Below are positions 608 to 64,000 of a stretch of DNA of 64,000 nucleotides, piece by piece. The notes below the pieces were generated by a model that was not told the DNA's origin, did no database searches, and saw nothing but the letters and a program-made list of their open reading frames with translations. Positions within the stretch are counted from its first letter, which is position 1; the number at the start of each line of letters is the position of its first letter. The DNA comes from Schmidtea polychroa (lineage: Eukaryota). The position numbers and the translations under genes were made by a program. The DNA lies in the NCBI GenBank assembly GCA_044892525.1, contig CM097885.1, forward strand, positions 251,162,001 to 251,226,000, read 5' to 3'.

Positions 608-1333
608 CTACTCTAATAATAAAAACCCATCTTCTAATTTTATGTTGTTATGCAAATTGAAAGGAAATTTCTTTTTATTCAAGTCATCTTTTTTCTCTTC
701 TCCCTGTAACACTCTTGTCATGTGAATGAAATCTACATCATCTTGTTGCTTTTCTAAGAGTTTAGTCATCGACTCAGTCTTCTGTAATGAGCTGATATGT
801 CTTACTTTGGCTTTTTCTTCATTTGCGTCTTCATGTCTAGTCTGGCATTGTGCACATAGCATCCCTTTAATCCTTGATATTCCGTCCGCATTTCCATGTT
901 CCTCTCCTTTCCTATATTGAAGATCGAAATCATATCCGGAAAGGTTGGCTAGCCAGGTTTGAAATTGCGGGCTTATCGGTTTTTTTGTGTATCTCATGAA
1001 AACCAACACCTTGTGATCCGTTCGTACTACAAATGACTTTCCGTATAGATATTGTTTAAAATACATTACATATTCGTGTATAGCAAGTAACTCCTTCCTA
1101 GTTACACAATAACCTTTTTCATGCGCGGTCAAGTGTCTCGACCCATATGCAATTACCACTTCAGTACCATCTTTTTTAGCTTGACATAAAACTGCTCCGA
1201 TGGCCCCAAAACTAGCGTCTGTATCCAGAATAAAGTTTCTATCCATTCTTGGGTAATCTAGAATTGGAGCTTCACACAAATTTGTTTTAAGTAATTCAAA
1301 ACTATTGTTGCAATCTTCTGACCAATTAATCTT
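608..1333 (-). pseudogene. Ty3/Gypsy RNase H and linker
   Basis: FILDTDASFGAIGAVL..IAYGSR..ELLAI..F..RTDHK..W...L..YDF.L.YRKG..H.NAD.ISR. In frame with RT through a single TAA. Confidence 0.93.
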
Positions 1334-2662
1334 TTACTCACAGCCGGACGTAGCTGCATGTAGAGGTTCCGCAATTTTCGCATAGTCTTTTATAAACTTC
1401 CTATAGTAATTGGTCATACCTAAAAAGGATCTTAATTGTTTGGCGCATACTGGTATTTCTGCATCTTGAATCTCTTTAATCTTCTTGTCGTTCGTTTTTA
1501 TCCCACTTGCACTTACAGTGTGCCCTAGGAATGTCAATTCTTCTTTATACAGATTACATTTTTCTGGGTTAATTCTCAACCCCGCTAGTTGAATTCTTCT
1601 GAATACTTCCTCTAATCGGTTATTGTGTTCCTCTATGTCTTTTCCATAGACAAGAATGTCGTCGAGGTAGACAACAACACCCTTAAATAATATTCCATCC
1701 AACATTGAGTGCATCATTCTTTGAAACGTCGCAGGGGCTGTTGCTAGTCCAAAAGGAAGTCGGTTAAAACAAAACTGTCCTTGCCTTGTACTGAAAGCCG
1801 TGACCTCTTGAATTTCCTTCGCCATTCCAACTTGATAATATGCTTGACCTAGATCGATGGATGTGAAATATTTTGAATCTGCCAGACAATCCAGTAGAAA
1901 TCGTGTATCTGGCATTGGAAAAGATATCTTTTCAGTGATCGCATTCAACCCTCTATAGTCGACACACATCCTTATTGATCCATCTTTCTTAGCCACAATC
2001 ACTAGTGGCGCGTTCCATGCACTTTTGCATTTTCTAATAACTCTCGCTTCTAATAAGTTTGTGACAAGTTCGTCAAGCTTTTGTTCTAAATGCATTGGTT
2101 GTCTTCTTGGCTGTAACATTACAGGCCCACCTACTATATTCATTTCATGCTGAACAACTTTCGTAAACCCGAGATCAAAAGTTGAAGCCATAAAAATACC
2201 TTTGAACTTCCGTAGCAATATGTCTAACTGTTCATTCTTCCTGTCTCCAAGCATTAATAATGCTTTCTCTTCTCGTTGTGAGTCCACATATGTCCTCATT
2301 ACTTGTGACGCTTCAATATTGTCTACCTCTACCAGTTGAATACCAAATCTCTCCATTGTATCTACACCCCCAATGAAATCTGGACGTATATCTTTGACAA
2401 CTATAACATTAATAATTCTTTTTTTCCCATTCCAATCAGCTTCTATCGTCATTGCTCCTAACGGTCTTTCCATTCCCGTCGAAAATACTCCACAAAGAGA
2501 AATTGTGCTCTGCTTCAACCTCGGTTTCCCGATCTTTGTCCAACTTTTTTCACTCATAACTGATACTGACGCTCCAGAGTCCCAAAGCATGTCAATCACC
2601 GTCATGTTTATTACAATCTTACTCCACTTTCTTCTGTCTGTCGTCTCATACATCTTCTGCAT
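1334..2662 (-). pseudogene. Ty3/Gypsy aspartic protease + reverse transcriptase
   Basis: LWDSGAS protease motif; RMCVDYRGLN, IDLGQAYYQV, RLPFGL, VYLDDILV and FLGH RT motifs. Confidence 0.96.
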
Positions 2663-2691
2663 CTTGTCTTCATTTCGCTTCTTTCTACTGA

Positions 2692-3396
2692 TTATTGTGT
2701 CGACCCCACTGACGAAATGAAAGCAATGGGATCGTCCTTGTTTTTTGGTTTATCCATTGATTTTTTTATCGTTTCTTCGTAATTACTGTATAAATCTTCT
2801 GTGAAATCACCATTATTTCTTTCGTGATCTTCTTCGTAAATACATGCCACTCTCTTCTGATATCCATTTCTATTTTTAAGCAAAAAACAATCTCTGAATC
2901 CATGACCTTCTTTTCCACAGATTAGACATTTGTCTTTCATAGGACATTCAAAACGCCGGTGCCCTATTTCTCCACAACAAAAACACTGACCTGGTGTCAG
3001 TTTCACTGGATGAGGCGAATCTCTTCCTTTGCTGTCATTAAATAACCTTCTTGCAATATCTTTAAGCGATACTGTAGGTATTCTTCTCTCTGGTTCTCCT
3101 GTCTCATATCGTCCTCTATACCGCTCATTTTCATTCTTGTCTTCATTTACAATTGGTACAAACCGACCATTACCAGGTCTATTCCTCTCATGATTAATCT
3201 CTCGGTGTTCGTCGCGTTGATGTGCAGTTGTCTTCACAATTGTTCTTTGGTCTCGTCTACCCTCGAATTTACCATTTTTCATCACTGATGCGTAGGAGTC
3301 TCTTCTTATTGCATCAATATTGAATTTATTGTCATTCGTCATCTCGATCTTCTCCTGAATTTTTGCCATATCCCTGGCATCTTCAAAACTTGTCAC
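2692..3396 (-). pseudogene. gag C-terminus with two CCHC zinc knuckles
   Basis: CFCCGEIGHRRFEC and CLICGKEGHGFRDC. Confidence 0.9.
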
Positions 3397-3853
3397 TTTC
3401 CTGATAAGAATATTTCTTTTACTCTATCGTCTTTCGCTCTGTTTGAGATAATGTCTCGAACAATCTGTTCATCAGACATTCCAGAGCTAAATACACTTTT
3501 AACTAAACTTCTTACTCGTATTTCGAAGACTTGGAATCTTTCATCTCTCTCTTGCTGAATTTGAGCTAGTTCCACAATCTTGTTAGTAATGGTTTTCCTT
3601 ACTGTAAAAGTTTCTATAAACCACTCTTTTGCCATTTCATCGGTCATTATCGCTATTTTCGCCGCTTCCCATGACATCGATGCCGCATCTGTCAACAAAA
3701 GATCCAATGCGTCTACTAGACTTTGATCTTCTATTCTCAGCCATTCCATAATATCCTTTAGCCAAAGTTCGGCTTCAGATCCAACTTTTCCGTCAAACTT
3801 TCTGACATTAAAATTTAGCATCTCACGTGCTTGTTTTGACAAGGAATCTAACA
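3393..3853 (-). pseudogene. gag capsid N-terminal part
   Basis: RKFDG..AELWL..A..W gag-like pattern. The true start is probably MLDSL, downstream of the PBS, not the tracked start at 3950. Confidence 0.75.
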
Positions 3854-3898
3854 TATTCTTAGTTCCTTTCTTTTTTCCTATCGCATTGATTTCCTTGG

Positions 3899-3909
3899 CG
3901 TGGTCGCCA
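3899..3909 (-). promoter_or_regulatory. Primer-binding site TGGCGACCACG (tRNA-Arg-like 3' end)
   Basis: The minus strand reads ...CATCA-TAAC-TGGCGACCACGCC just upstream of gag: an LTR-end CA, a short spacer, then a TGG-initiated PBS. Confidence 0.7.
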
Positions 3910-5449
3910 GTTATGATGTCCTCAACTTCTAAATTCATAAAATAAATCAATAATAATTCAATAAGTTATATTTTTCAAAAACACGCTAAAACGAATATTA
4001 TTCAAACAAAACTTTACATAACTATGATAAATAATGATATCTGAATATCTTATTCATATTTAATTGAATCTTAAAAGTTTAGAAATTTAGAGTTAATATA
4101 TAAAAATGACTGCTTAAGATCTTTTGATATTAAATTAAAAAATTTAATTATATAATTAATTGTTTTTTGCTAACTTTCAAATTAGTTAACTAATTTGCAA
4201 ATTTTCAATTAAATATTTGTTTATATAACCAAATATCAAATGAAAAAATTAAAAGTTTTTATTTTATTTAGATAAATTTGTGTTAGTTTAATTGATAATT
4301 TAATAAAATTTGAAATTATGTTTTAACTGAATTAAAATTCAGGTTGAACGGATTTGATAATTAAATGATAATAATTCGAATTCTGACATACGATTATTCG
4401 GTGAAATGCTTTGTCCTCGTTAAGCATTTCCTTCGCAGTAAGTTCTATTCAATGAATAATTGCACATAAATTTCTCACTAAAATGAAGATTATCACCTTC
4501 TGAGAGTATTAATTTTTATCAGAGTTCTTATGTTGATTAACTTTTCTGGGTTATCATTTGAAATAATGAATATTTAATATTGACTTGATGTGATATTTAG
4601 GCCTTTAAGGGAATATAATGAAATTTGGTCATGATATCTACAAATGTTTTTGAATATGTTTATAATTTGAGTGGTAGAAATGATTTTGTAATGTTATTGA
4701 TTTCTAATTGACAAATTGATTAAATTCAATATCTATTCATTTTATATTTTCTTCTAAGAATATATTATCTATTGATTAATAAAAGAATTATTATTTGAAT
4801 TGGCCTCATGATCTTAATTGCCAAAATTAATGTCTCAATCATTTGCTCAAATTCCCAGGATTCTCGAGTTATATATTACTTTTACTGTCCATCATTGTCA
4901 GCTCACTTAAAATGTTTTCTTTGTCAATAAATTTGTTTTTGAAGTAATAAATAGAATTTAAAGAAAAAAATTTTTTTTTGTGAATTTTCTTTAAATTTCA
5001 GTTGTTTAAATATTCTCGTTTTTTGAGATGAATTTGTAAATTTCTATAAATTGTTTTAAAAAATTCGTTCGGTTTAATTTATAGATTTGACTTGCAACCA
5101 TATAGTAAACAGTAAATGGGCCAAATTGTCATTGAAATTTGAATCTTTTTATACATACGATCAGCAATACCAGGATATATTGTTGAACTGTCTGATAAAA
5201 CTGTATTGCATAGCATTTCATCATGCTGTTATATGCCATCTCGTGAATACCAAGAATGATTGCTGGAACAAAGCTTCTGGACATCTGAGTCTTTTATATC
5301 CAATAGTAATAACTTGACCATCTGGTAGTTAATAACTCTTCAAGTAACGATGAAAAAGCAGGAATTTGCATTTCTTACTCAAAATCAAGAACAACGTAAC
5401 ACAACTTTAATTTTTAACTTTTAGTTTTTTCTTTTTAAAGACTTATTAT

Positions 5450-53900: not shown

Positions 53901-55440
53901 CTATGTCGTATCACACACTAGATATGGTCCTTTAAACGGTCGTTGCAATTTCGTTGACAAGCTTTTTGTTGGTTCTGGTTTGTTTATATACACGAGATCT
54001 CCAATTTTAATGTCATGCGCCCTTGCGCGTTTATCATAGCATTCTTTATACGCTTCTTGATGATGCCTTATGTTAAGTCCAGCTTGGATCCATACTGACT
54101 GTAATCTTTCATGCATAGCTATTTTATAATCTGATACATCCATATATTTGGAAATAGGTGACTGAAATTCCAGATCGACTGGCATATTGTTTCGTCGTAG
54201 ATACATGAGATAAAAGGGTGTTTCTCCAGTGCTTTCATTTACTGCATTCCGGTATGCAAATAAGCATGGTTTAATGAATAAATCCCAATCCTTTTGTTTC
54301 CTATTTACATAGGATGATATCATATTAATTAGTGTCCCATTAAATCTTTCAACTAGGCCATCTGTTTGTGGATGATATGGTGAGGTACTAAGTTTCAATA
54401 TACCAAATAAATCTGCAATTGATTTAAATAATTCACTCTGAAAATTTGTTCCTTGATCTGTAAGTAATTTCTTTGGTGCTCCGTATCGAAAAATAATATT
54501 CTCCACAAATATTTTCGCAACTGTTTCTGCTTTCTGATTTGGCATTGCATAAGCTTCTGGCCATTTAGTAAGATAATCGCAAAAATCAATAATGTATTTG
54601 TTGCCATTTGTTGTTTCCGGCAATGGACCAACGATTTCCATTGGTGCCTTTGGCACTGGCATAGGCTTAAGCGGAACTTTTATTTTCCGTCCCGTATTTC
54701 GTCTTGTTAGGCATATCTCACACGTATGACACCATTGTCTGACATCTTGTTCCATCGTTTTCCAATAATATTTCTGTTTCAATCTTGATAATGTTTTTCG
54801 CGCTGATAAATGCCCTCCTAATGCTCCATCGTGATACAACAACAGTAATGCTTTTCGATGTTTTGTCGGAACAATAATTAACAAATTTTCATTTTGTACA
54901 CATTTTAACAAACCATCATGAATAATGTATTTATGGTTCTCTTCGGCAATATGTTTCCAGTCACTCTCCTTTTTGATTGAGACAGCATGTTGACGTAATT
55001 GATTTAATTCCTCGTCATTTTCCTGATCATCTTGTAATTTTTCTATATTATTTGCCGTTTTAATTGCCATGAATATTGTATTTTCGCAATTTTTCTCATC
55101 CAGCTCAACATTATTTTCTACGGGTATTCTCGACATAGCATCCGCATTTGCATTTGACTTTCCTGTACGATACTTTATCTCGAAATCATATTCTTGTAAC
55201 GCAATTGACCACCTAATTAATTTACTGGCTGAATCTCTGTGCTTCATTAGCCATTGTAACGGATTGTGATCCGTAAAGACAACAAACTTTCTGCCTACTA
55301 GGTATTGTCGAAAAGTGGTTATCCCATATACCAATGCTAACGTTTCTTTTTCGATTGTCGAATAATTTTTTTCATGAGGTTTCAATGATCTGCTGGCATA
55401 AGCAATTACATGATCTTTTTCCCCTTCTACTTGCTGTCCT
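53901..55440 (-). pseudogene. RNase H + integrase
   Basis: AYASRSL..YSTIEKE.LA..TDHNPL; H..ALGGH..C..C zinc finger; DYLTKWPEA, LLTDQG, YHPQTDGLVERFN; GPY motif. Confidence 0.96.
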
Positions 55441-55450
55441 AATACCGCGC

Positions 55451-56677
55451 CTAATGTGAAATTACTGTCATTAATATAAACGGTTTTTTAAAGTTCGGAC
55501 ATCTTAATATCGGCTGTTTTATTAAGCTTTCTTTGAGTTCATCAAACGCTTCTTGCTGAGCTGTTGTCCATTTAAATTTTGCTTGCTTTTTCAATAACAT
55601 GTTCAAAGGTTGTGCGACATGTGAGAAACGTTTAATAAACTTTCTGTAATAACTAGCTAATCCCAGAAATTGTCGAACCTGATCTACATCCTTGGGAATA
55701 GGATATTTCTTAATTTTCTCTACATTTTCTGGATTTGGTTGCAAACCTCGACGCGAAATGATATGACCCACATAAACGACTTCAGATTTTCCCCATTCTC
55801 ATTTGGAGGGTTTTATTTTTAAGTTTGCTTCTAACAATCGCTTGAATACTGTTTCCACATCCTGCAAATGTTCCTGAAAACTATTCGAAAATATTATAAT
55901 ATCGTCAATATACACTAATGCATGTGGTATATCGCGCAAAACAAAATTCATACCTCTCTGAAATGTAGCAGGTGCTCCTGTTACTCCGAATGGTAACACG
56001 TTAAACTCATATAGACCTTTCCCATCTGAAAATGCAGTTTTCCTTCTATCTTCCTCTTTGACTTTAAATTGATTGTATCCTTTATTAAGATCTATTACCG
56101 TAAAATATTGCACCTCCCCCATCTGATCGAACATTTCCTGTGGAACAGGAATAGAATATGTATCTTTTCTCGTAACTTGGTTCAATTTTCGATAGTCGAC
56201 ACAAAATCTTAAATCACCGTCCTTCTTTTTAACTACTACTATTGATGATGAGAATGGTGAGGAACTATCTCTTATTATATTGAATTCTTTCATTGCTTTG
56301 ATTTGCCGATCACTTTCTTCCTGATGTATGTATGGTATTCTATACGGCCGTAATTTTATTGGGGTTTCGCTGAGTAATGGTATTTCATGCTCAATCACCT
56401 GAGTGAGTCCCAGATCATACTCATGTTTTGCAAATACATTTCTATATTTCTTTAATAATGCACCAAATTCTTGTTTTTGCAAATCCGTCAAATCTTTGCT
56501 TGTGATCTGAGGTTCTTTATAAATTTTTATATTTCTCGGTAACTTCTGAGCTTCCTCTGATTTGATTTTTGTTAATTTTCCCAATTTGGTTTTGGGCTTT
56601 ATTTCAACGGATCTTGCACTATAATTCGCTATTCTAACTGGTACTGACTTGTTTTGGACTTTCACTACTTCGCACAC
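55451..56677 (-). pseudogene. Reverse transcriptase (+connection)
   Basis: RFCVDYRKLN, IDLNKGYNQF, LPFG, VYIDDIII. In-frame TGA at 55799-55801 (PSK*EW); frameshift at ~55465 through the TDAS motif. Confidence 0.96.
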
Positions 56678-57474
56678 ATAGGCACGTCGTATTTTTCAAC
56701 CAGCTTTTGATTTGGCTCAAATATGTACTCCTCATCTGAGACTCTCATAACATCTGCATAGTATATTACTTCGCTTTTTGGTGGTACTTCCAATGTTTGG
56801 TTTAGAAATACCTCTCCTACTTCAGGCACCATTTCACCCATTTGTCCTTTTATTAGTTTTCCAGTTCTCAGATCAAGAGAAATTCCATGTAGTTGCTCCA
56901 TGACATCCATGCCAATAAGACATTTTACAGGACTTTTTCTCATCACTGATACCCAATGAATTATTTCTTGATCTCCAATTATCAGTTTAACTTCTAATTT
57001 TCCAACAATATTTAGTGCATTATGTGACATTGATTTAATAATGTGATTCGTTGGTTTTATTTTGGCTTTCTCCTGATACGTCAAGAAGCTTTCCGCTACT
57101 ATAGTATGACTTGAGCCTGAGTCTAATAAAGCTTCCACTTTTCTCTTGTTAAATTGTATATTTATTCGAGGTTGTTTTCCTCCTACTACTGTTGTCATTA
57201 GTGCATAGCTGCATGGTAGACCAAGCATATTCTTTCTTTCAATTTCAGCACTCGTTGGTTCAATCTTCTCTAATTCTATTGTAATATTATCGACCGATTT
57301 CATCTCTTTTAGTTTTTCACTTGGATATACTGGTGCTGTTGGTCTAAATGTCGGGGTATACCATCTACTAAGAGTATCAATCCCACTTAATTTTGGCATT
57401 GGTTCAAGCAAGAACCTGGACTCTGGCTCTACTTTACTCTTTATTACACTTTTTCGAAAGTATTTATGCTCCGA
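56665..57474 (-). pseudogene. Aspartic protease region
   Basis: VEALLDSGSSHT..LIGMDVM. A 1-nt frameshift at ~56670 joins it to RT. Confidence 0.9.
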
Positions 57475-57538: not shown

Positions 57539-59461
57539 TCACTTTTCCTTAATTTTTCTTAATTGTGCCCTTACTCTTGCCATTTCTTTAAATTGATGAT
57601 CTGTAATAAAGAATCTAGCCAACAATGGAATACAACCAATAATTAATTTCCATGACCATCCCGATATTGCATATATTCGATGTACTGACAACATTTGCGA
57701 CACTACCACCTTTGCCGTTATCACAATCTCGTAAATTCCAATTAAACCTGCACATGCTTGTCCCAAAAACATGAACTTGCCCCAAATCTTTTCCATCGTT
57801 TTATATGTAGCTCGTTTGAAATGATCAGGTGTTAGCAAATTTTCGTAATTTACTGTTCCTTCTCCATTCGGTAATACTGTGTCAATCATTTCTGAAATTA
57901 TCCGTTCCTTTTTGGATGGAAACAACAAATTCCTTTGAGCTTCTTCGATATCTTCGCTTGCATACAAGCCCATTTGTGCCATTTTGTTTAGTGATGTGAA
58001 ATTTATCAGGTATTCTAAATTTGTTAATTCTAGTTTGTCTGGAGTCTTGACCCCACGATAATCTGGTAAGGCTATCCATGAATCTGTAGCTAATCGGTAT
58101 AAAGGGGCTAATAATCGATTGCATTGCAAAAGTTTTGGTTTAGTTTGTTCATCAAGCAAGATTCTAGTTATCGGTTCCATAAATCGTACCTTTCCCCCAA
58201 AGCTTACTGGTAATTCGTTCGTACATTTTTCGTATTTGGCAATTTTCACTTTGACTTCTTTGCATTTGTAACTGTATAATGCTTCTCCAAATATTCTCGC
58301 AAACACTCCATTTTCTGATATTAGCATAGGTGCTACTAAATTTGGATTCGTAATTGCCATCGCCATCCGATTTCGGAGAATCTCTTTATTCAACTTACAA
58401 TCGTTCAGAATCATTTCTCTATATACATTTTCCATGATGTTTTGACTAAAATGAAACAAATAATCAATTTTATTATTAAAATAATGAGTAAGTTTAATGT
58501 CATCTCTATGAATTTTAATTTTTGCTTCTTCCACAACATTTCTAGACACGTAAACACCTTTATAATTTGTTACATATACCATTCGACCACATTTATTTGT
58601 GATTTCCTTTCTTATAAATCGCATTCCATCTGCTGGTAACGTAGACATTAAAACTGTTCTCATTTGTTTTGTCCATACTGGGGTTGATTTAATGGTATTA
58701 TTTGGTCTATAATTCATATTGAAATTATCTGGTTTATCTCTAAACTGTTCTCCTACTAGTTCTTTAAAGTTCATAGTTTTTAAGTGCGCTAAATTACACT
58801 TATTTGTTTCTACATTATAAACAAGAATCAATTCCCTTGTTTGACAATGTGTTTGTTTCATATTACAGAATGGATGAGTTTGTAATTTTCCCGTATCATC
58901 ATCGAAAGCTCCTTCGAACTCTCCGAACTCCGTGAGATATTCTTCTAGCACTACTGTTTGCTGAATAATTTTACCGTTCATTTTATATGGTTCACCTTCA
59001 CAGTCGCCATTTGCTTTCATAACTCCCTTTACAATTATTGTTTCTCGTATTCTATGGTTCAATTTTGCCTTTAAACGAATTTCTGGACTTATTTTTAATT
59101 CTCCTGTTTGAAATTCTGCTAGACAGTTTTCTGGAAGCACCTCGACTGGCCTAGGTATCGCATGCATTTTTATGAGTGACGTATGGCTCCATTTACCACA
59201 ATAGAATACAAATGTTGTATGTTTGACAATACACTCTCTCACTTGAGTTCTTCGCAAATCAGACTCTTGATACACATAATATTTTACGTCATTTTCTATT
59301 TTTAAACTGCTCGAATACGCACCTGGGCATTCCGACATATCTACTACCGAATAAACTTTTCCCATTTCAGTTTGGGAACAATCGTACGCAACTAAAGATG
59401 ATGTCTGTGTAATTATTGCACAAAACGTAATCACCATAAACATCGCCCATGGAAATATCAT
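57539..59461 (-). CDS. Chuvirus-like (Monjiviricetes-type, class III) fusion glycoprotein: signal peptide, ectodomain, TM
   Basis: Signal MIFPWAMFMVITFCAIITQTSS, then VAYDC, DMSEC, YCGKWSH, GDCEG.PY, CKLNKEILRN.MA.A..NP, A...GE.LY.YKC..V.V, CTNELPV, P.TRIL, GLY, WGKF..LG..CAG.IGI. This is the ordered motif series of chuvirus G. Confidence 0.88.
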   Translation of the reverse strand: MIFPWAMFMVITFCAIITQTSSLVAYDCSQTEMGKVYSVVDMSECPGAYSSSLKIENDVKYYVYQESDLRRTQVRECIVKHTTFVFYCGKWSHTSLIKMHAIPRPVEVLPENCLAEFQTGELKISPEIRLKAKLNHRIRETIIVKGVMKANGDCEGEPYKMNGKIIQQTVVLEEYLTEFGEFEGAFDDDTGKLQTHPFCNMKQTHCQTRELILVYNVETNKCNLAHLKTMNFKELVGEQFRDKPDNFNMNYRPNNTIKSTPVWTKQMRTVLMSTLPADGMRFIRKEITNKCGRMVYVTNYKGVYVSRNVVEEAKIKIHRDDIKLTHYFNNKIDYLFHFSQNIMENVYREMILNDCKLNKEILRNRMAMAITNPNLVAPMLISENGVFARIFGEALYSYKCKEVKVKIAKYEKCTNELPVSFGGKVRFMEPITRILLDEQTKPKLLQCNRLLAPLYRLATDSWIALPDYRGVKTPDKLELTNLEYLINFTSLNKMAQMGLYASEDIEEAQRNLLFPSKKERIISEMIDTVLPNGEGTVNYENLLTPDHFKRATYKTMEKIWGKFMFLGQACAGLIGIYEIVITAKVVVSQMLSVHRIYAISGWSWKLIIGCIPLLARFFITDHQFKEMARVRAQLRKIKEK

Positions 59462-59557
59462 AGTTTTTCTTAGTTCTGGCTTAACTCTTTCATTTACTCG
59501 TCTTTGGGGTGGACTCATTTCTTGCTTCTCATTTTTCTTTTCTGTTAGAGATGAACA

Positions 59558-59870
59558 CAGTGTTTTCCAACCACCTTTTTCGTTTACCCAGCTCATTAAA
59601 TATTCGTTTACTAGCCGGGCAGCGATGTCTATCAAATTTTCTAACTTGTCTGACCTTGCGAACGTATGCGTTCCAATTTCTAAAACAACATAAGTTAAAG
59701 CTATTATTATAACTTCCTTATTAATTTCATTTTTTGTTAACTTTTCAATTACTGATCTCTCGCAAAATGTATTCTCTTCGCCAAATTTCTGCATCACTTC
59801 AGGAAGCCTATTCTTCATCTCTTTAACTATTTCTTTCAGTTCATCATCTACCTCTATTTCTATGTCGAAC
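59558..59870 (-). CDS. Bcl-2-like domain within the large ORF
   Basis: BH1-like VIEKLTKNEINKEVIIIALTY and BH2-like LVNEYLMSWVNEKGGWKTL, with canonical spacing. Confidence 0.65.
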
Positions 59871-60178
59871 ATTGGATATACTGCTTTAACGAGATGTTTC
59901 AACATTTTCTTAGTTTCGTCGACGTCTTGTTCTAGCTTCACTAAATATTTCTTTATTTCATATAAAGTTCTAACTTTCTTATTTTTGATTTCACCATTTA
60001 TTTCGCCTTCAGGTACAAGTGGCTCTCCTTGTACGTCTGGTTCTGTGGACTGATCTTTGTTATCAGGATCTTTTTGCTCATTATCACTAACGATTTCATC
60101 AATTTCTTTATTTCCCTTAACTTTTTCATCTTGTTCCTCTGTGTCAGGCTTGTTAGACTCAATATTTACTTCTAAACT

Positions 60179-60460
60179 CACTCCTTTTACTACGACTATA
60201 TGGTTCACTAAATATCCCACTCGTCCATCTCCGATCAAATATCCATTTTCATCCAGCTCTTGTGGTACACACCCACAATCATATAAGTATTCATCATCGT
60301 CAAGTTCTTCACCTTTGTACATTATTATAATAATTCCATCTTTTCCCAGCGTTTCAGCCGCTCTCTTCCGCAATTTTCGGACCTTTGCACACCAATGCTC
60401 GTCTACATATTCCGTTTTGCCATATCCCTCATAATCCAATGCTATCAAAAATGGCTTTAA
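60179..60460 (-). CDS. Ubiquitin-like domain within the large ORF
   Basis: VRKLRKRAAETLG..IIMYKGEELDDDEYLYDCG..HIVVVKG vs ubiquitin IENVKAKIQDKEG..LIFAGKQLEDGRTLSDYN..HLVLRLRGG. Confidence 0.55.
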
Positions 60461-60629
60461 CTCTACTCTTGCCTTTCGGAGCTCCGTGCCCAATCTTTGC
60501 AATAAACTTCTTAATAACTTGGCATATCTGGTTTTCACATGTAAATATGGTCGTAAGTAGTAGGATGTGTCACCACTGGCACATGTCACCTCTGGCACAC
60601 CCCCCCGGGGGGTAAACGAAATTTTTTTT

Positions 60630-60925
60630 TCAAGGTCAAATTTTAAACAAAGACATATGACTCATCAAGGTCATTGAAACAAAGACCATGACTCATCCGA
60701 TGACTCATCAAATTTTTCAAGGTCATTTAAACAAAGACCATGACTCATCCGATGACTCACCAAGGTCATTTTCAAGGGCATATGACTCATCCAATGAGTC
60801 ATAAAAATTTTCAAGGTCATTTAAACAAAGACCGTGACTCATCAAGGTCATTTTCAAGGTCGCATGACTCACCCAAGGTCATTCTCAAGGTCATGTGAGT
60901 CATCGCGATGAGTCATCAAGGTCAT
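60630..60925. promoter_or_regulatory. Homotypic array of 11 TGA(C/G)TCA and 9 CAAGGTCA motifs
   Basis: Counted directly. TGACTCA/TGAGTCA at 60658, 60689, 60701, 60741, 60753, 60783, 60795, 60835, 60865, 60896, 60909. CAAGGTCA at 60631, 60666, 60718, 60761, 60812, 60843, 60874, 60886, 60917. Confidence 0.8.
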
Positions 60926-61752
60926 ATTATTATTTTTTAAAAATATTATTATTTTTATTATTATTTTTAAAAAATATTATTATTTTATTTTTAATTTTTT
61001 CAAAGTTCTCGCCAACGAAAATTATTCATCGATAGCTCATTTTAAAGCTCAATCCAAGACCTTTCGAATGAGCCATATATCTTGTTATTANNNNNNNNNN
61101 NNNNNNNNNNNNNNNNNNNNNNNNNNNNNNNNNNNNNNNNNNNNNNNNNNNNNNNNNNNNNNNNNNNNNNNNNNNNNNNNNNNNNNNNNNNNNNNNNNNN
61201 NNNNNNNNNNNNNNNNNNNNNNNNNNNNNNNNNNNNNNNNNNNNNNNNNNNAGTCTATCCGACAAAATATTTTGTCCCCCTATGGGTAATGCTCACAAGG
61301 GTACTGTCACGNNNNNNNNNNNNNNNNNNNNNNNNNNNNNNNNNNNNNNNNNNNNNNNNNNNNNNNNNNNNNNNNNNNNNNNNNNNNNNNNNNNNNNNNN
61401 NNNNNNNNNNNNNNNNNNNNNNNNNNNNNNNNNNNNNNNNNNNNNNNNNNNNNNNNNNNNNNNNNNNNNNNNNNNNNNNNNNNNNNNNNNNNNNNNNNNN
61501 NNNNNNNNNNNNNNNNNNNNNNNNNNNNNNNNNNNNNNNNNNNNNNNNNNNNNNNNNNNNNNNNNNNNNNNNNNNNNNNNNNNNNNNNNNNNNNNNNNNN
61601 NNNNNNNNNNNNNNNNNNNNNNNNNNNNNNNNNNNNNNNNNNNNNNNNNNNNNNNNNNNNNNNNAATATCATTATTATTACTTTTATTATTATGAAACAT
61701 ATATATAAATAGGTCTAATAACTTCATTTACAACATTCACAAATATTCATCG

Positions 61753-62321
61753 ATGTCTTCAAACGATCCACAGGTTTGATGTTATAATTATTTAGTAATT
61801 TAATTATTTTAAATAAGGTACAAGAATTGTCTATTGATTGGGATCATTCCTTTTTAATAATAGATAAACTTCTAACAATAAATGATGAAGATTATATATT
61901 CCTGGCCAAAATAAATAAATCTTTCAAACATCAAGTAATTCAAAATCTATTTGATAAGTTCGGCTTCAATATATCGATGTTGAAATTAACCAGCTGTATA
62001 ATATCTATAAATAATATTAACCATACAGAAATTAACATGCTTAAGGTTTTCTGGATATGTATGGATTTCAGGTTCGGAAAATATCGCGAGCTTATTGAAA
62101 TCTTCCTTCTTAATGCATATAAACTTGGTATTAAAATACATAATTTACTGAATGAAGTCAGAAAACAGTTTATTACATGTTGTATATGTCAAATTAGAGA
62201 AGTTTCTATTCTATATCTGCCTTGTGGTCATATCATTATTTGTTCCTTATGTTTGGAAAACTGTAGTAGATGTCAGAGTTGTGGTGTCATAATCGATGAA
62301 TCTCATTCAGTGTATTTTTGA
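61753..62321 (+). CDS. IAP-type C3HC4 RING protein (BIR-less), two exons (61753-61773, 61818-62321)
   Basis: C-terminal CCICQIREVSILYLPCGHIIICSLCLENCSRCQSC..VYF*. The ATG exon MSSNDPQ joins in frame across a 44-nt GT..AG intron. Confidence 0.8.
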
Positions 62322-62548
62322 AATAAATGTTGTAAAACTCCTACTTATTATTATTATTATTATTATATAATTTCAACTTTCTATCACAAATAACTAAAAA
62401 CATAGTTGATTATTATAAAATTTATAACACAAAATTATACCATAAAAAGTTGACAAACAAAAATAACTAAATATTTACAAATTTTTATTCAACATCGTAT
62501 TTACACAAATATAATGTCAATGTTAAATAATTGGCCCAAAATATAACT

Positions 62549-64000
62549 CTAAATTATTGAATTGAATATTTGATCGAATTGTTGATCTCGAATGACAGGA
62601 TCCGTTTCAGGCATGACGATATTACCACTACCATCTAAGACATCAACCCCTCTATAATGTCCATATGCAAAACTTGAGTTTTTCCCTACCCAAGCTCTCT
62701 TATCGTCGTGATTATTTAAAGCTATTTTTGAGTTTTTAAAAGTAAATAGCTGATGATTCCGGGTTCCTATTCTAGTTTGAGGAACCGACATGACTGTGTT
62801 GTTGTTATAGCAGTCTAAATAAGATTGATGTTTGATGTCGGTCCCCGGTAATTTTACGCCCTTAGCCCTCATTGTTGACTTATTTCCTAATAGGCTGTAA
62901 CATTTAGGACGTAAGAAAACCCATTCACTATATATCCTAACCCTTTACTCTCATCCTTAAACTTGCCTATAACTGAGTCAAGTCGCCTGGAATATAAAGG
63001 ATGAGAGGGATCGTAATTTGAAGTATCTAAAAGGTCATCCGAAATCATCGCTTGTAATAAGATATCTAATTTAAAATTTTTAACCTCTAAAAAGAAAGAG
63101 TCGGTATCACCCGCTACTAAATTAATTTCACAATTATAAATATCCCGATATCGTTGTAGCTCTATATACTGTAACTGATACATCCGTAGTTTGGATAGAT
63201 CCAGTACTGATTGTCCGATGTAGCTGGGTCTATCCAAACATATAGAGTCCTTATTGAGATGCGCGGCAAACAGATCATCAGCTATTTCAATTGTTTTTCT
63301 GAATGCCGGTTTTGACGAATATGTAATTAATTTTTCAGATGAATTACATAGTCGCAAATTCATCCTCTTTTTAAGGTTCTCTACGGATTTACCGTACAGG
63401 CTATTATTATATAATTTAAATAAATCTCTATATATTTCACTAACTGCATTAGCACGCAAGTTAGTGTTTTTATCGATATAATGTTTAAAGATATGATTTT
63501 GTTTATATTTTATAGCTCTGTGTATATTTACAACCTTAGCCCCAAGTGAAAGATAAAGCCTGAGAAGCCTCCAATGAAGAACATAGTTCTTCTTTGGATA
63601 ATGCGTGAGCATTAGCTTCTCAACTTTTGAGTTAGGTGGGCACATCTTTTCCGGTCCAATCGGAAAGTCATTTAAAAAATCATGGAAATCAATCGGAATC
63701 TCGATATCAACTTCCATAGTATATCCATATGGAAGTGTTTCGATATCCGCAACATTCACACACTCATCCAAAACTTCATTCAAGCCATCATACACCCAAG
63801 TAAAATCACCATAGGGAAGACTTTGGCTAAGAGCCCAACCATACAGATTATTTATATCAATATACAATAATTCTGTATCATCTGAAGCAGCCGTGTAATG
63901 TTTGTTAACAAATGTTAACCCACCCCGTATTCCTCCCTCGTAAAAATTGAACATTTCCATGTCCTGTAAAAGTTCTATGGGTTCCGTTAATGTCATAAGC
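62549..64000 (-). pseudogene. Protein-primed family B DNA polymerase, C-terminal part, frameshift near 62930
   Basis: GIRGG, YIDINNLYG, KLYNNSLYGK, AGDTDS, GKFKDE, then (shifted frame) FLRPKCY, RAKGV. Confidence 0.93.

What the first reader, a model, noticed from the sequence alone, without database searches (positions are those of the whole stretch)
59558..59870. Bcl-2-like domain encoded by a retrotransposon, directly N-terminal to the envelope signal peptide
Seen: the helical segment DDELKEIVKEMKNRLPEVMQKF..SVIEKLTKNEINKEVIIIALTYVV..LENLIDIAARLVNEYLMSWVNEKGGWKTL. The W-x-x-x-x-GGW motif and upstream L..YL are the BH2 signature. The BH1 NWGR is degenerate (NKEV). Known: viral Bcl-2 mimics occur in large DNA viruses (herpes-, pox-, adeno-, asfar-), and Bcl-2 proteins are usually tail-anchored. 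Inferred: the following hydrophobic G signal peptide could double as the C-terminal membrane anchor after cleavage, giving an apoptosis modulator co-produced with the fusogen.
Basis: partly seen in the sequence, partly recalled or inferred. Interest (0 to 1): 0.86.

Follow-up and report, generated by a model that had tools for sequence, protein, structure and literature searches.

The report
Bcl-2 fold in Burro-like retrotransposon polyprotein
A virus-like jumping gene carries a domain related to the Bcl-2 cell-death regulators just before its envelope protein, a layout already published for planarian Burro elements; the envelope's signal peptide would likely leave the domain anchored in the endoplasmic reticulum, but any effect on cell death is untested.

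Summary
A profile built only from element sequences matches Bcl-xL (E 3e-8). The AlphaFold model aligns to Bcl-xL at Z 13.8, and its top 35 matches are all Bcl-2-fold proteins.

The domain lies in the single Gag–Bcl-2–Env–PR–RT–RH–IN polyprotein of a young, multi-copy 17-kb LTR element. It is under purifying selection, and three element families of this genome keep it before an internal signal peptide. The window copy is broken and split by a Maverick.

The layout is already in print: BCL2-like motif, then in-frame Env, then protease, in planarian Burro elements (PMC6431247).

Added here: fold support; loss of the BH1 Gly (16 of 17 sequences) and, in this family, the Arg, which argues against canonical BH3 binding; a conserved cleavable signal peptide 20–56 residues after BH2; and a second signal peptide plus membrane protein after the integrase. 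That gives a four-pass topology.

Verdict: new member of a known kind, modest interest.

The parts
59531..59941 (-). Bcl-2-fold domain (about residues 241-377 of the window ORF), predicted helical bundle
   Evidence: Pfam PF00452 E 2.4e-4; profile vs PDB E 3e-8; model pLDDT 71-91 per 10-residue block over residues 1-130; VIA-align Z 13.8, rmsd 2.6, 126 residues to Bcl-xL 4qnq_A
59876..59920 (-).
   Evidence: helix H2-24 of the model, inside the range aligned to Bcl-2 structures; coordinates
59711..59722 (-). BH1 position: NKEV where cellular members have NWGR
   Evidence: alignment to Bcl-xL; column table; same word in 30 of 30 nearest copies
59567..59590 (-). BH2 motif W-x4-GGW
   Evidence: 30 of 30 nearest copies; second Gly invariant in 17 of 17, last Trp in 16 of 17
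59465..59530 (-). Variable hydrophilic linker between the domain and the signal peptide
   Evidence: pLDDT under 50 for residues 137-165; highest dN/dS of the regions scored, 0.44-0.84
59396..59464 (-). Internal signal peptide 1 (basic n-region, hydrophobic core 59408-59464, small residues at -3/-1); predicted cleavage after 59396
   Evidence: hydropathy and -3/-1 table over 11 homologues; the -3/-1 rule is recalled and no signal-peptide predictor was available
57701..59395 (-). Envelope glycoprotein ectodomain and membrane anchor (anchor about 57701-57775)
   Evidence: PF24664 Monjiviricetes_fusion E 1.2e-84; hydropathy
53901..57474 (-). Protease, reverse transcriptase, RNase H, integrase (Ty3/gypsy order); in this copy broken by frame changes near 57549, 56672, 55465 and in-frame stops at 55799-55801 and 53901-53903
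   Evidence: Pfam; ORF list; places of frame changes
52506..53717 (-). Internal signal peptide 2 (53658-53717) and a second predicted type I membrane protein (anchor 52590-52655, 11 N-glycosylation sequons); the C-terminus of the polyprotein in unbroken natural copies
   Evidence: hydropathy pattern in three families; 36% identity between families F1 and F3; no significant Pfam hit; fibronectin-III-like look-alikes at 0.85-0.88, a lead only
50620..52104 (-). Separate accessory ORF with a weak exonuclease match, inside the element
   Evidence: PF00929 E 0.005; present between the LTRs of the natural copy
60556..64000 (.). Left part of an 11.3-kb Maverick/Polinton-type element inserted into the polyprotein gene; the first 35 codons of the window ORF are its terminal repeat
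   Evidence: element homology stops at 60555 and resumes 11.3 kb on with a 6-bp overlap; inverted repeats of about 600 bp at both ends

Best explanation
This is a Bcl-2-fold domain in the single Gag–Bcl-2–Env–Pol polyprotein of a Burro-like, envelope-bearing LTR retrotransposon; signal-peptidase cleavage of the envelope's internal signal peptide would likely leave it on the cytosolic face of the ER with that peptide as a C-terminal anchor, where it likely damps host cell-death or stress signalling through a non-canonical groove. Shown: homology, predicted fold, place in the polyprotein, purifying selection, conserved hydrophobic segments. Inferred: four-pass topology (Gag and Bcl-2 cytosolic, Env luminal, Pol cytosolic, second membrane protein luminal), cleavage site, persistence of the anchor (about 0.55), pro-survival role (about 0.45). 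The window copy itself is broken and could not make the full polyprotein; the mechanism applies to the family.
For: Homology and fold. One sister-family copy passes the Pfam cut-off (32.2 bits).

Context: a natural copy is 17.4 kb with 865-bp LTRs 99.7% identical and one 3437-aa ORF, Gag-CCHC-(weak ubiquitin-like)-Bcl-2-Env-PR-RT-RH-IN. TG..CA ends, 4-bp target duplications, PBS and polypurine tract are seen in 3 of 3 copies examined.

Conservation: the order Bcl-2, linker, signal peptide, Env start recurs in families F1, F2 and F3 and in 6 of the 8 outside proteins found (the other 2 end before the signal peptide). Bcl-2 dN/dS is 0.21, 0.12 and 0.48 in three subfamily pairs.

Signal peptide: hydrophobic core in 11 of 11, net positive n-region in 10 of 11, small residue at the predicted -1 in 11 of 11. 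The same four hydrophobic segments fall in the same order in all three polyproteins, which returns Pol to the cytosol.

Pro-survival viral Bcl-2 homologues are established for large DNA viruses (PMC9027176, passages).
Against: BH1 Gly is kept in 1 of 17 aligned sequences. The Arg position is Val in this family and F3 (5 of 17) and Lys or Arg in the other 12. PMC9027176 (passages) calls these residues important for binding and reports a large loss of affinity for Mcl-1 R263A. Helix 2 shows no Gly-Asp BH3 core (read by eye).

The integrase is also followed by a signal peptide, so these peptides may simply serve the downstream glycoproteins.

Selection is not specific to the domain: the 195 codons upstream give similar dN/dS (0.18-0.39), and Env is far more constrained (0.05-0.08). 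dS is near saturation in two pairs, and the F2 pair was picked by a Bcl-2 search.

Only 1 of 5 AlphaFold models was confident (70.8 against about 43), the single-sequence model was poor (49.8), and Foldseek gave no E under 0.001. The model is not independent of the sequence likeness.
Confidence: 0.45

Rival explanations
1. The element's own aspartic protease cuts in the flexible linker and frees the Bcl-2 domain, soluble or still joined to upstream Gag-side sequence. The signal peptide then only delivers Env to the ER, and any anchor is transient.
For: The linker is disordered and variable, 20-56 residues. The integrase sits before a similar signal peptide and presumably must be released (inference). 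The residues after the hydrophobic core are polar and uncharged, unlike the basic ends of the stand-alone bcl-2 tails in this genome's Mavericks.
Against: No conserved cleavage word is visible in the linker. A Bcl-2 fold followed by a linker and a terminal hydrophobic helix is the ordinary layout of the family (established knowledge).
Confidence: 0.3
2. The fold is kept for a job other than BH3 sequestration, such as blocking innate-immune or autophagy signalling, like the vaccinia Bcl-2-fold proteins A52, B14 and A46 (roles recalled).
For: Loss of the BH1 Gly and Arg and of a BH3 core. The domain evolves faster than Env. These vaccinia proteins share the fold (Z 5.9-7.4).
Against: The best structural matches are cellular and viral pro-survival proteins and Bak (Z 13-14). 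12 of 17 sequences keep a basic residue at the Arg position. ORFV125, with SPGR in BH1, still binds Puma, about 250-fold more weakly (PMC9027176, passage).
Confidence: 0.25
3. The domain is structural or membrane-active for the element itself: a membrane-binding spacer that holds Gag beside Env during budding, or a Bak/Bax-like helper of particle release.
For: It sits exactly between Gag and Env in one chain. Its central helix is hydrophobic enough to score like a membrane segment in F1 and F3 (KD 1.8-1.9). Bak is tied for the best structural match (Z 13.7).
Against: A hydrophobic central helix is normal for the folded bundle. No BH3 core for Bak-type dimerisation is evident. Nothing here shows particles.
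Confidence: 0.1
4. The resemblance is chance: a generic helical region with a GGW word.
For: The single sequence is below the Pfam cut-off and not significant against PDB. The fold tool warns that helical bundles can reach Z near 13.
Against: Profile E 3e-8. Unbiased profile ranks Bcl-2 first. The top 35 structural rows are one fold and the first unrelated row is at Z 5.7. The motif was reported independently in print (PMC6431247).
Confidence: 0.02

Closest known systems
Burro / GYPSM1 giant gypsy-like LTR retrotransposons of planarians (PMC6431247, section 7 read in full; Grohme 2018 and Jurka 2007 not seen, known only through that review)
   Same: One long ORF with N-terminal Gag and CCHC knuckles, a ubiquitin-like stretch (weak here, E 0.014), BCL2-like domain, in-frame Env related to mononegavirus-type glycoproteins, then PR-RT-RH-IN; high copy number.
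   Different: 17.4 kb and 3437 aa here against over 30 kb and 4873 aa. No BIR, ankyrin, MATH or dUTPase hit in Pfam at E 0.1. Here the ORF ends in a second signal peptide and membrane protein, and an exonuclease-like ORF follows; the section read mentions neither. No direct sequence comparison with Burro was possible.
Cellular Bcl-2 family (Bcl-xL, Bak, A1/Bfl-1; PF00452)
   Same: Helical fold (Z up to 13.8), BH2 W-x4-GGW, helix 1 in the BH4 position, a C-terminal hydrophobic helix after a linker.
   Different: BH1 NWGR replaced by NKEV, no BH3 core, 8-16% identity in structural alignments. The hydrophobic helix is an internal signal peptide within a polyprotein, not a terminal tail anchor.
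Viral Bcl-2 homologues of large DNA viruses (A179L, BHRF1, KsBcl-2, CNP058) and adintovirus/Maverick Bcl2 (PMC8502044, one passage)
   Same: A Bcl-2 fold carried by a mobile element or virus.
   Different: Those are stand-alone genes of DNA viruses or DNA transposons; this one is a polyprotein domain of a reverse-transcribing element.

Membership tests
Bcl-2 fold superfamily | Helical bundle around a central hydrophobic helix, superposable on solved members | tested here: met
   (prediction; 1 of 5 models confident)
Bcl-2 fold superfamily | Sequence homology to PF00452 or solved members | tested here: met
   profile E 3e-8; the window sequence alone is below Pfam's cut-off (22 of 31.4 bits)
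Canonical multidomain Bcl-2 proteins | BH2 motif | tested here: met
Canonical multidomain Bcl-2 proteins | BH1 NWGR with Gly and Arg | tested here: not met
   NKEV in 30 of 30 nearest copies; Gly in 1 of 17 homologues
Canonical multidomain Bcl-2 proteins | C-terminal membrane anchor | tested here: inconclusive
   a hydrophobic segment follows in 11 of 11, but whether it stays on the mature domain is unknown
Canonical multidomain Bcl-2 proteins | Binds BH3 helices and regulates apoptosis | not testable with these tools
   needs a binding or cell assay
Ty3/gypsy-type LTR retrotransposon | LTRs with TG..CA ends, target duplication, PBS, PPT, domain order PR-RT-RH-IN | tested here: met
   3 of 3 natural copies examined; no RT tree was built
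Burro elements | Gag-BCL2-Env-Pol in one frame | tested here: met
   3437-aa ORF without stops
Burro elements | Giant size (over 30 kb) with BIR, ankyrin and MATH domains, as described for Burro1/GYPSM1 | tested here: not met
   17.4 kb, none of these domains in Pfam; filed as Burro-like, not as Burro1
Burro elements | Sequence identity to a named Burro family (1-4) | not testable with these tools
   no Burro reference sequence was at hand; the Grohme 2018 paper is not held

The most novel reading that the evidence does not exclude
These elements are enveloped, virus-like retroelements whose one polyprotein is threaded four times through the ER membrane, in the manner of flavivirus polyproteins. 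A single signal-peptidase cut yields both the fusogen and an ER-anchored, NWGR-less Bcl-2 mimic that keeps the producing cell alive, and a second cut after the integrase yields an undescribed fibronectin-III-like surface protein.
Probability: 0.3. Interest if true: 0.7.

Novelty: new member of a known kind. Interest (0 to 1): 0.36.

Why it matters
A retroelement with its own Bcl-2-fold protein is unusual, but it has been in print since 2018-2019, flagged then as worth testing. This work makes it testable. It gives domain borders, a predicted cleavage site, a topology and a clear prediction: weak or non-canonical BH3 binding in this family, and possibly stronger binding in the sister family that keeps a basic residue. 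If confirmed, it would show a reverse-transcribing element controlling host cell death with a protein made in one chain with its fusogen. That bears on how such elements reach very high copy numbers in animals with continual cell turnover.

Tried and rejected
Single-sequence fold: pLDDT 49.8, not used for searching.

Word-index protein searches: no hit at E 0.001 among longer proteins, which is weak evidence.

Complex prediction of the domain with a host BH3-like helix from L031: no answer, score 0.01, alignment not used; no evidence either way.

Expression: no RNA holder listed. Contigs of four runs only guessed to be RNA cover the stretch in part (30, 25, 12 and 19 of 30 bins); one shows T-tails at A-rich places, which could be internal priming. 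Not used as evidence.

Origin: the 10 element domains form one side of a branch (92/95, not starred; 90% of bootstrap trees), but host and Maverick rows are unresolved and branches are long. No donor is claimed. The best-scoring non-LTR frame was L042 (33 bits), taken as host without a check, then Maverick L053 (24 bits), of 36 frames scored. The tree left out 8 of the 17 A2 rows (near-duplicates and short pieces) and added P0004.

The idea that the window copy is simply 5'-truncated was rejected: it is split by a Maverick.

Literature: three searches returned no paper (LTR retrotransposon + Bcl-2 + envelope + polyprotein + signal peptide; chuvirus + glycoprotein + retrotransposon + gypsy + flatworm; Bcl-2 + endogenous + retrotransposon + signal anchor). 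led to PMC6431247. So the anchor and topology idea was not found in print, but Grohme 2018 with its supplements and Repbase could not be read and may hold more.

Earlier scan findings by words and by sequence: nothing.

Full report
Observation. The segment lies in a minus-strand frame, 57539-60661 (1040 codons). Pfam finds a chuvirus-type fusion glycoprotein in it (PF24664, E 1.2e-84) and a weak, full-length Bcl-2 match (PF00452; E 2.4e-4 for the isolated domain, 22 bits against a cut-off of 31.4). Downstream frames encode protease, reverse transcriptase, RNase H and integrase.

Is it a Bcl-2 domain? The single sequence is not significant against PDB (best E 0.16), though the 60 listed rows are Bcl-2-family entries. 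I gathered homologues from two further families in this genome and from a search of 1.84 billion representatives, which gave 8 proteins at E up to 0.001. A profile of 17 element-derived sequences hits Bcl-xL at E 3e-8. Some members had been found through PF00452 or a profile seeded by it, so I repeated the search with four sequences found only through the window and the envelope profile; Bcl-2 again ranks first (E 0.003).

Fold. AlphaFold with the 17-row alignment gave one confident model of five (pLDDT 70.8, the others about 43). Against 48,161 chains it aligns to Bcl-xL at Z 13.8, rmsd 2.6 over 126 residues. The top 35 rows are Bcl-2-fold proteins (the fold of the poxviral rows is recalled) and the first unrelated row is at Z 5.7. 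Foldseek lists 40 rows, all Bcl-2 family, none under E 0.001; viral Bcl-2 homologues lead the viral library at weak E-values.

The carrier. All 150 scored matches in the genome (of 1743 candidates) are 96-100% identical and 146 of 150 have no stop in the domain. A natural copy elsewhere on the contig is 17.4 kb with 865-bp LTRs 99.7% identical and one 3437-aa ORF: Gag, CCHC knuckles, a weak ubiquitin-like stretch, Bcl-2, Env, PR, RT, RNase H, integrase, and a C-terminal region. It has TG..CA ends, a 4-bp target duplication, a PBS and a polypurine tract, as do one copy each of families F2 (13.4 kb, 3053 aa) and F3 (17.7 kb, 3334 aa). The window copy is 97.3% identical over 9953 bases. It is broken by three frame changes and two in-frame stops, and is split at 60555/60556 by an 11.3-kb Maverick-type element; the retroelement resumes beyond the window.

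Conservation and selection. W-x4-GGW is present in 30 of the 30 nearest copies, which were picked by similarity to this domain. In the 17-row alignment the second Gly is invariant and the Trp is kept in 16. dN/dS for the domain is 0.21, 0.12 and 0.48 in three subfamily pairs, against 0.05-0.08 for Env, 0.44-0.84 for the linker and 0.18-0.36 for the upstream region. The domain is therefore kept as protein, but no more strictly than its upstream neighbour, and dS is near saturation in two pairs. At BH1 the Gly is kept in 1 of 17; the Arg position is Val in 5 (this family and F3) and Lys or Arg in 12. PMC9027176 (passages) states that these two residues are important for binding within the family, and also that ORFV125 with SPGR still binds Puma weakly.

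Topology. In 11 homologues a hydrophobic core follows BH2 after 20-56 residues (35 here). It has a net positive n-region in 10 of 11 and small residues at the predicted -3/-1 positions four residues before the conserved YDC in 11 of 11 (one F2 copy has a short deletion there; a second candidate site just before the Tyr fits 10 of 11; rule recalled, no predictor available). All three polyproteins show, in order, this segment, the Env anchor, a second signal-like segment after the integrase and a C-terminal anchor. Each also has one other segment over the threshold: the central helix of the Bcl-2 bundle in F1 and F3, and a stretch in the protease region in F2. The simplest reading puts Gag and Bcl-2 in the cytosol, Env in the lumen, Pol in the cytosol and a second glycoprotein in the lumen. 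The same logic would tether the integrase, which presumably must be cut free by the element's protease, so the Bcl-2 domain may be cut free too.

Known or new. PMC6431247 (section 7, read in full) describes planarian Burro elements with one ORF running Gag, accessory domains, a BCL2-like motif, Env with hits to mononegavirus glycoproteins 'between BCL2 and PR', then Pol, and suggests meddling with apoptosis as worth testing. It credits the BCL2-like motif to Grohme 2018, which is not held; its supplements may bear on details here. PMC8532177 (passages) shows Burro transcripts rising after PIWI knock-down and has no mention of Bcl. PMC11410931 (passages) mentions Burro once. This family shares the layout but is half the size and lacks BIR, ankyrin, MATH and dUTPase hits, so it is Burro-like; that the host is a planarian is inferred from this likeness. 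Three targeted searches found no paper on the signal-anchor idea. Two earlier scan notes concern bcl-2 genes in Mavericks of this genome and agree with what I saw; they do not bear on the retroelement.

Verdict. The element is a new member of a known kind. Homology about 0.97; lasting ER anchor about 0.55; pro-survival role about 0.45; interest 0.36.

Noticed in passing
window 52506-53717 (-): After the integrase the polyprotein carries a second signal peptide and a predicted type I membrane protein with 11 N-glycosylation sequons; 36% identical between families F1 and F3, same hydropathy pattern in F2. No significant Pfam hit; fibronectin-III-like look-alikes below the 0.9 mark. Not mentioned in the Burro section read.
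   Followed up: partly
window 50620-52104 (-): Accessory ORF with a weak RNase T/DEDDh-type exonuclease match, inside the LTR element.
   Followed up: partly
window 60556-64000 and L097: An 11.3-kb Maverick/Polinton-type element splits the retroelement; it carries a RING-finger ORF (61788-62321, PF13920 E 4e-7) and a DNA-polymerase-like ORF (judged by eye; no Pfam match).
   Followed up: partly
L093-L094 (L046 type) and L095-L096 (L053 type): Two kinds of stand-alone, dispersed multi-copy bcl-2-like genes with hydrophobic tails lie among Maverick-type ORFs (named by eye); one appears to have an intron. So two unrelated mobile element classes in this genome carry Bcl-2 homologues. Bcl2 in adintoviruses is already reported (PMC8502044).
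   Followed up: partly
L031-L037 (G000 C4, about 89.95-90.83 Mb): Seven near-identical copies of a bcl-2 gene with intact NWGR clustered within 0.9 Mb.
   Followed up: no
L083:676-2838 (+): Family F2 has a second 722-aa ORF overlapping the end of the polyprotein and running into the 3' LTR; no Pfam hit at E 0.1.
   Followed up: no
window 30001-41000: About 11 kb of very strong, uniform GC skew (-0.64); not examined, possibly a simple tandem array.
   Followed up: no
window 608-3965, 26960-28836, 48761-49324 (all -): Fragments that look by eye like another gypsy element, a hAT-type transposase and a Tc1-type transposase.
   Followed up: no
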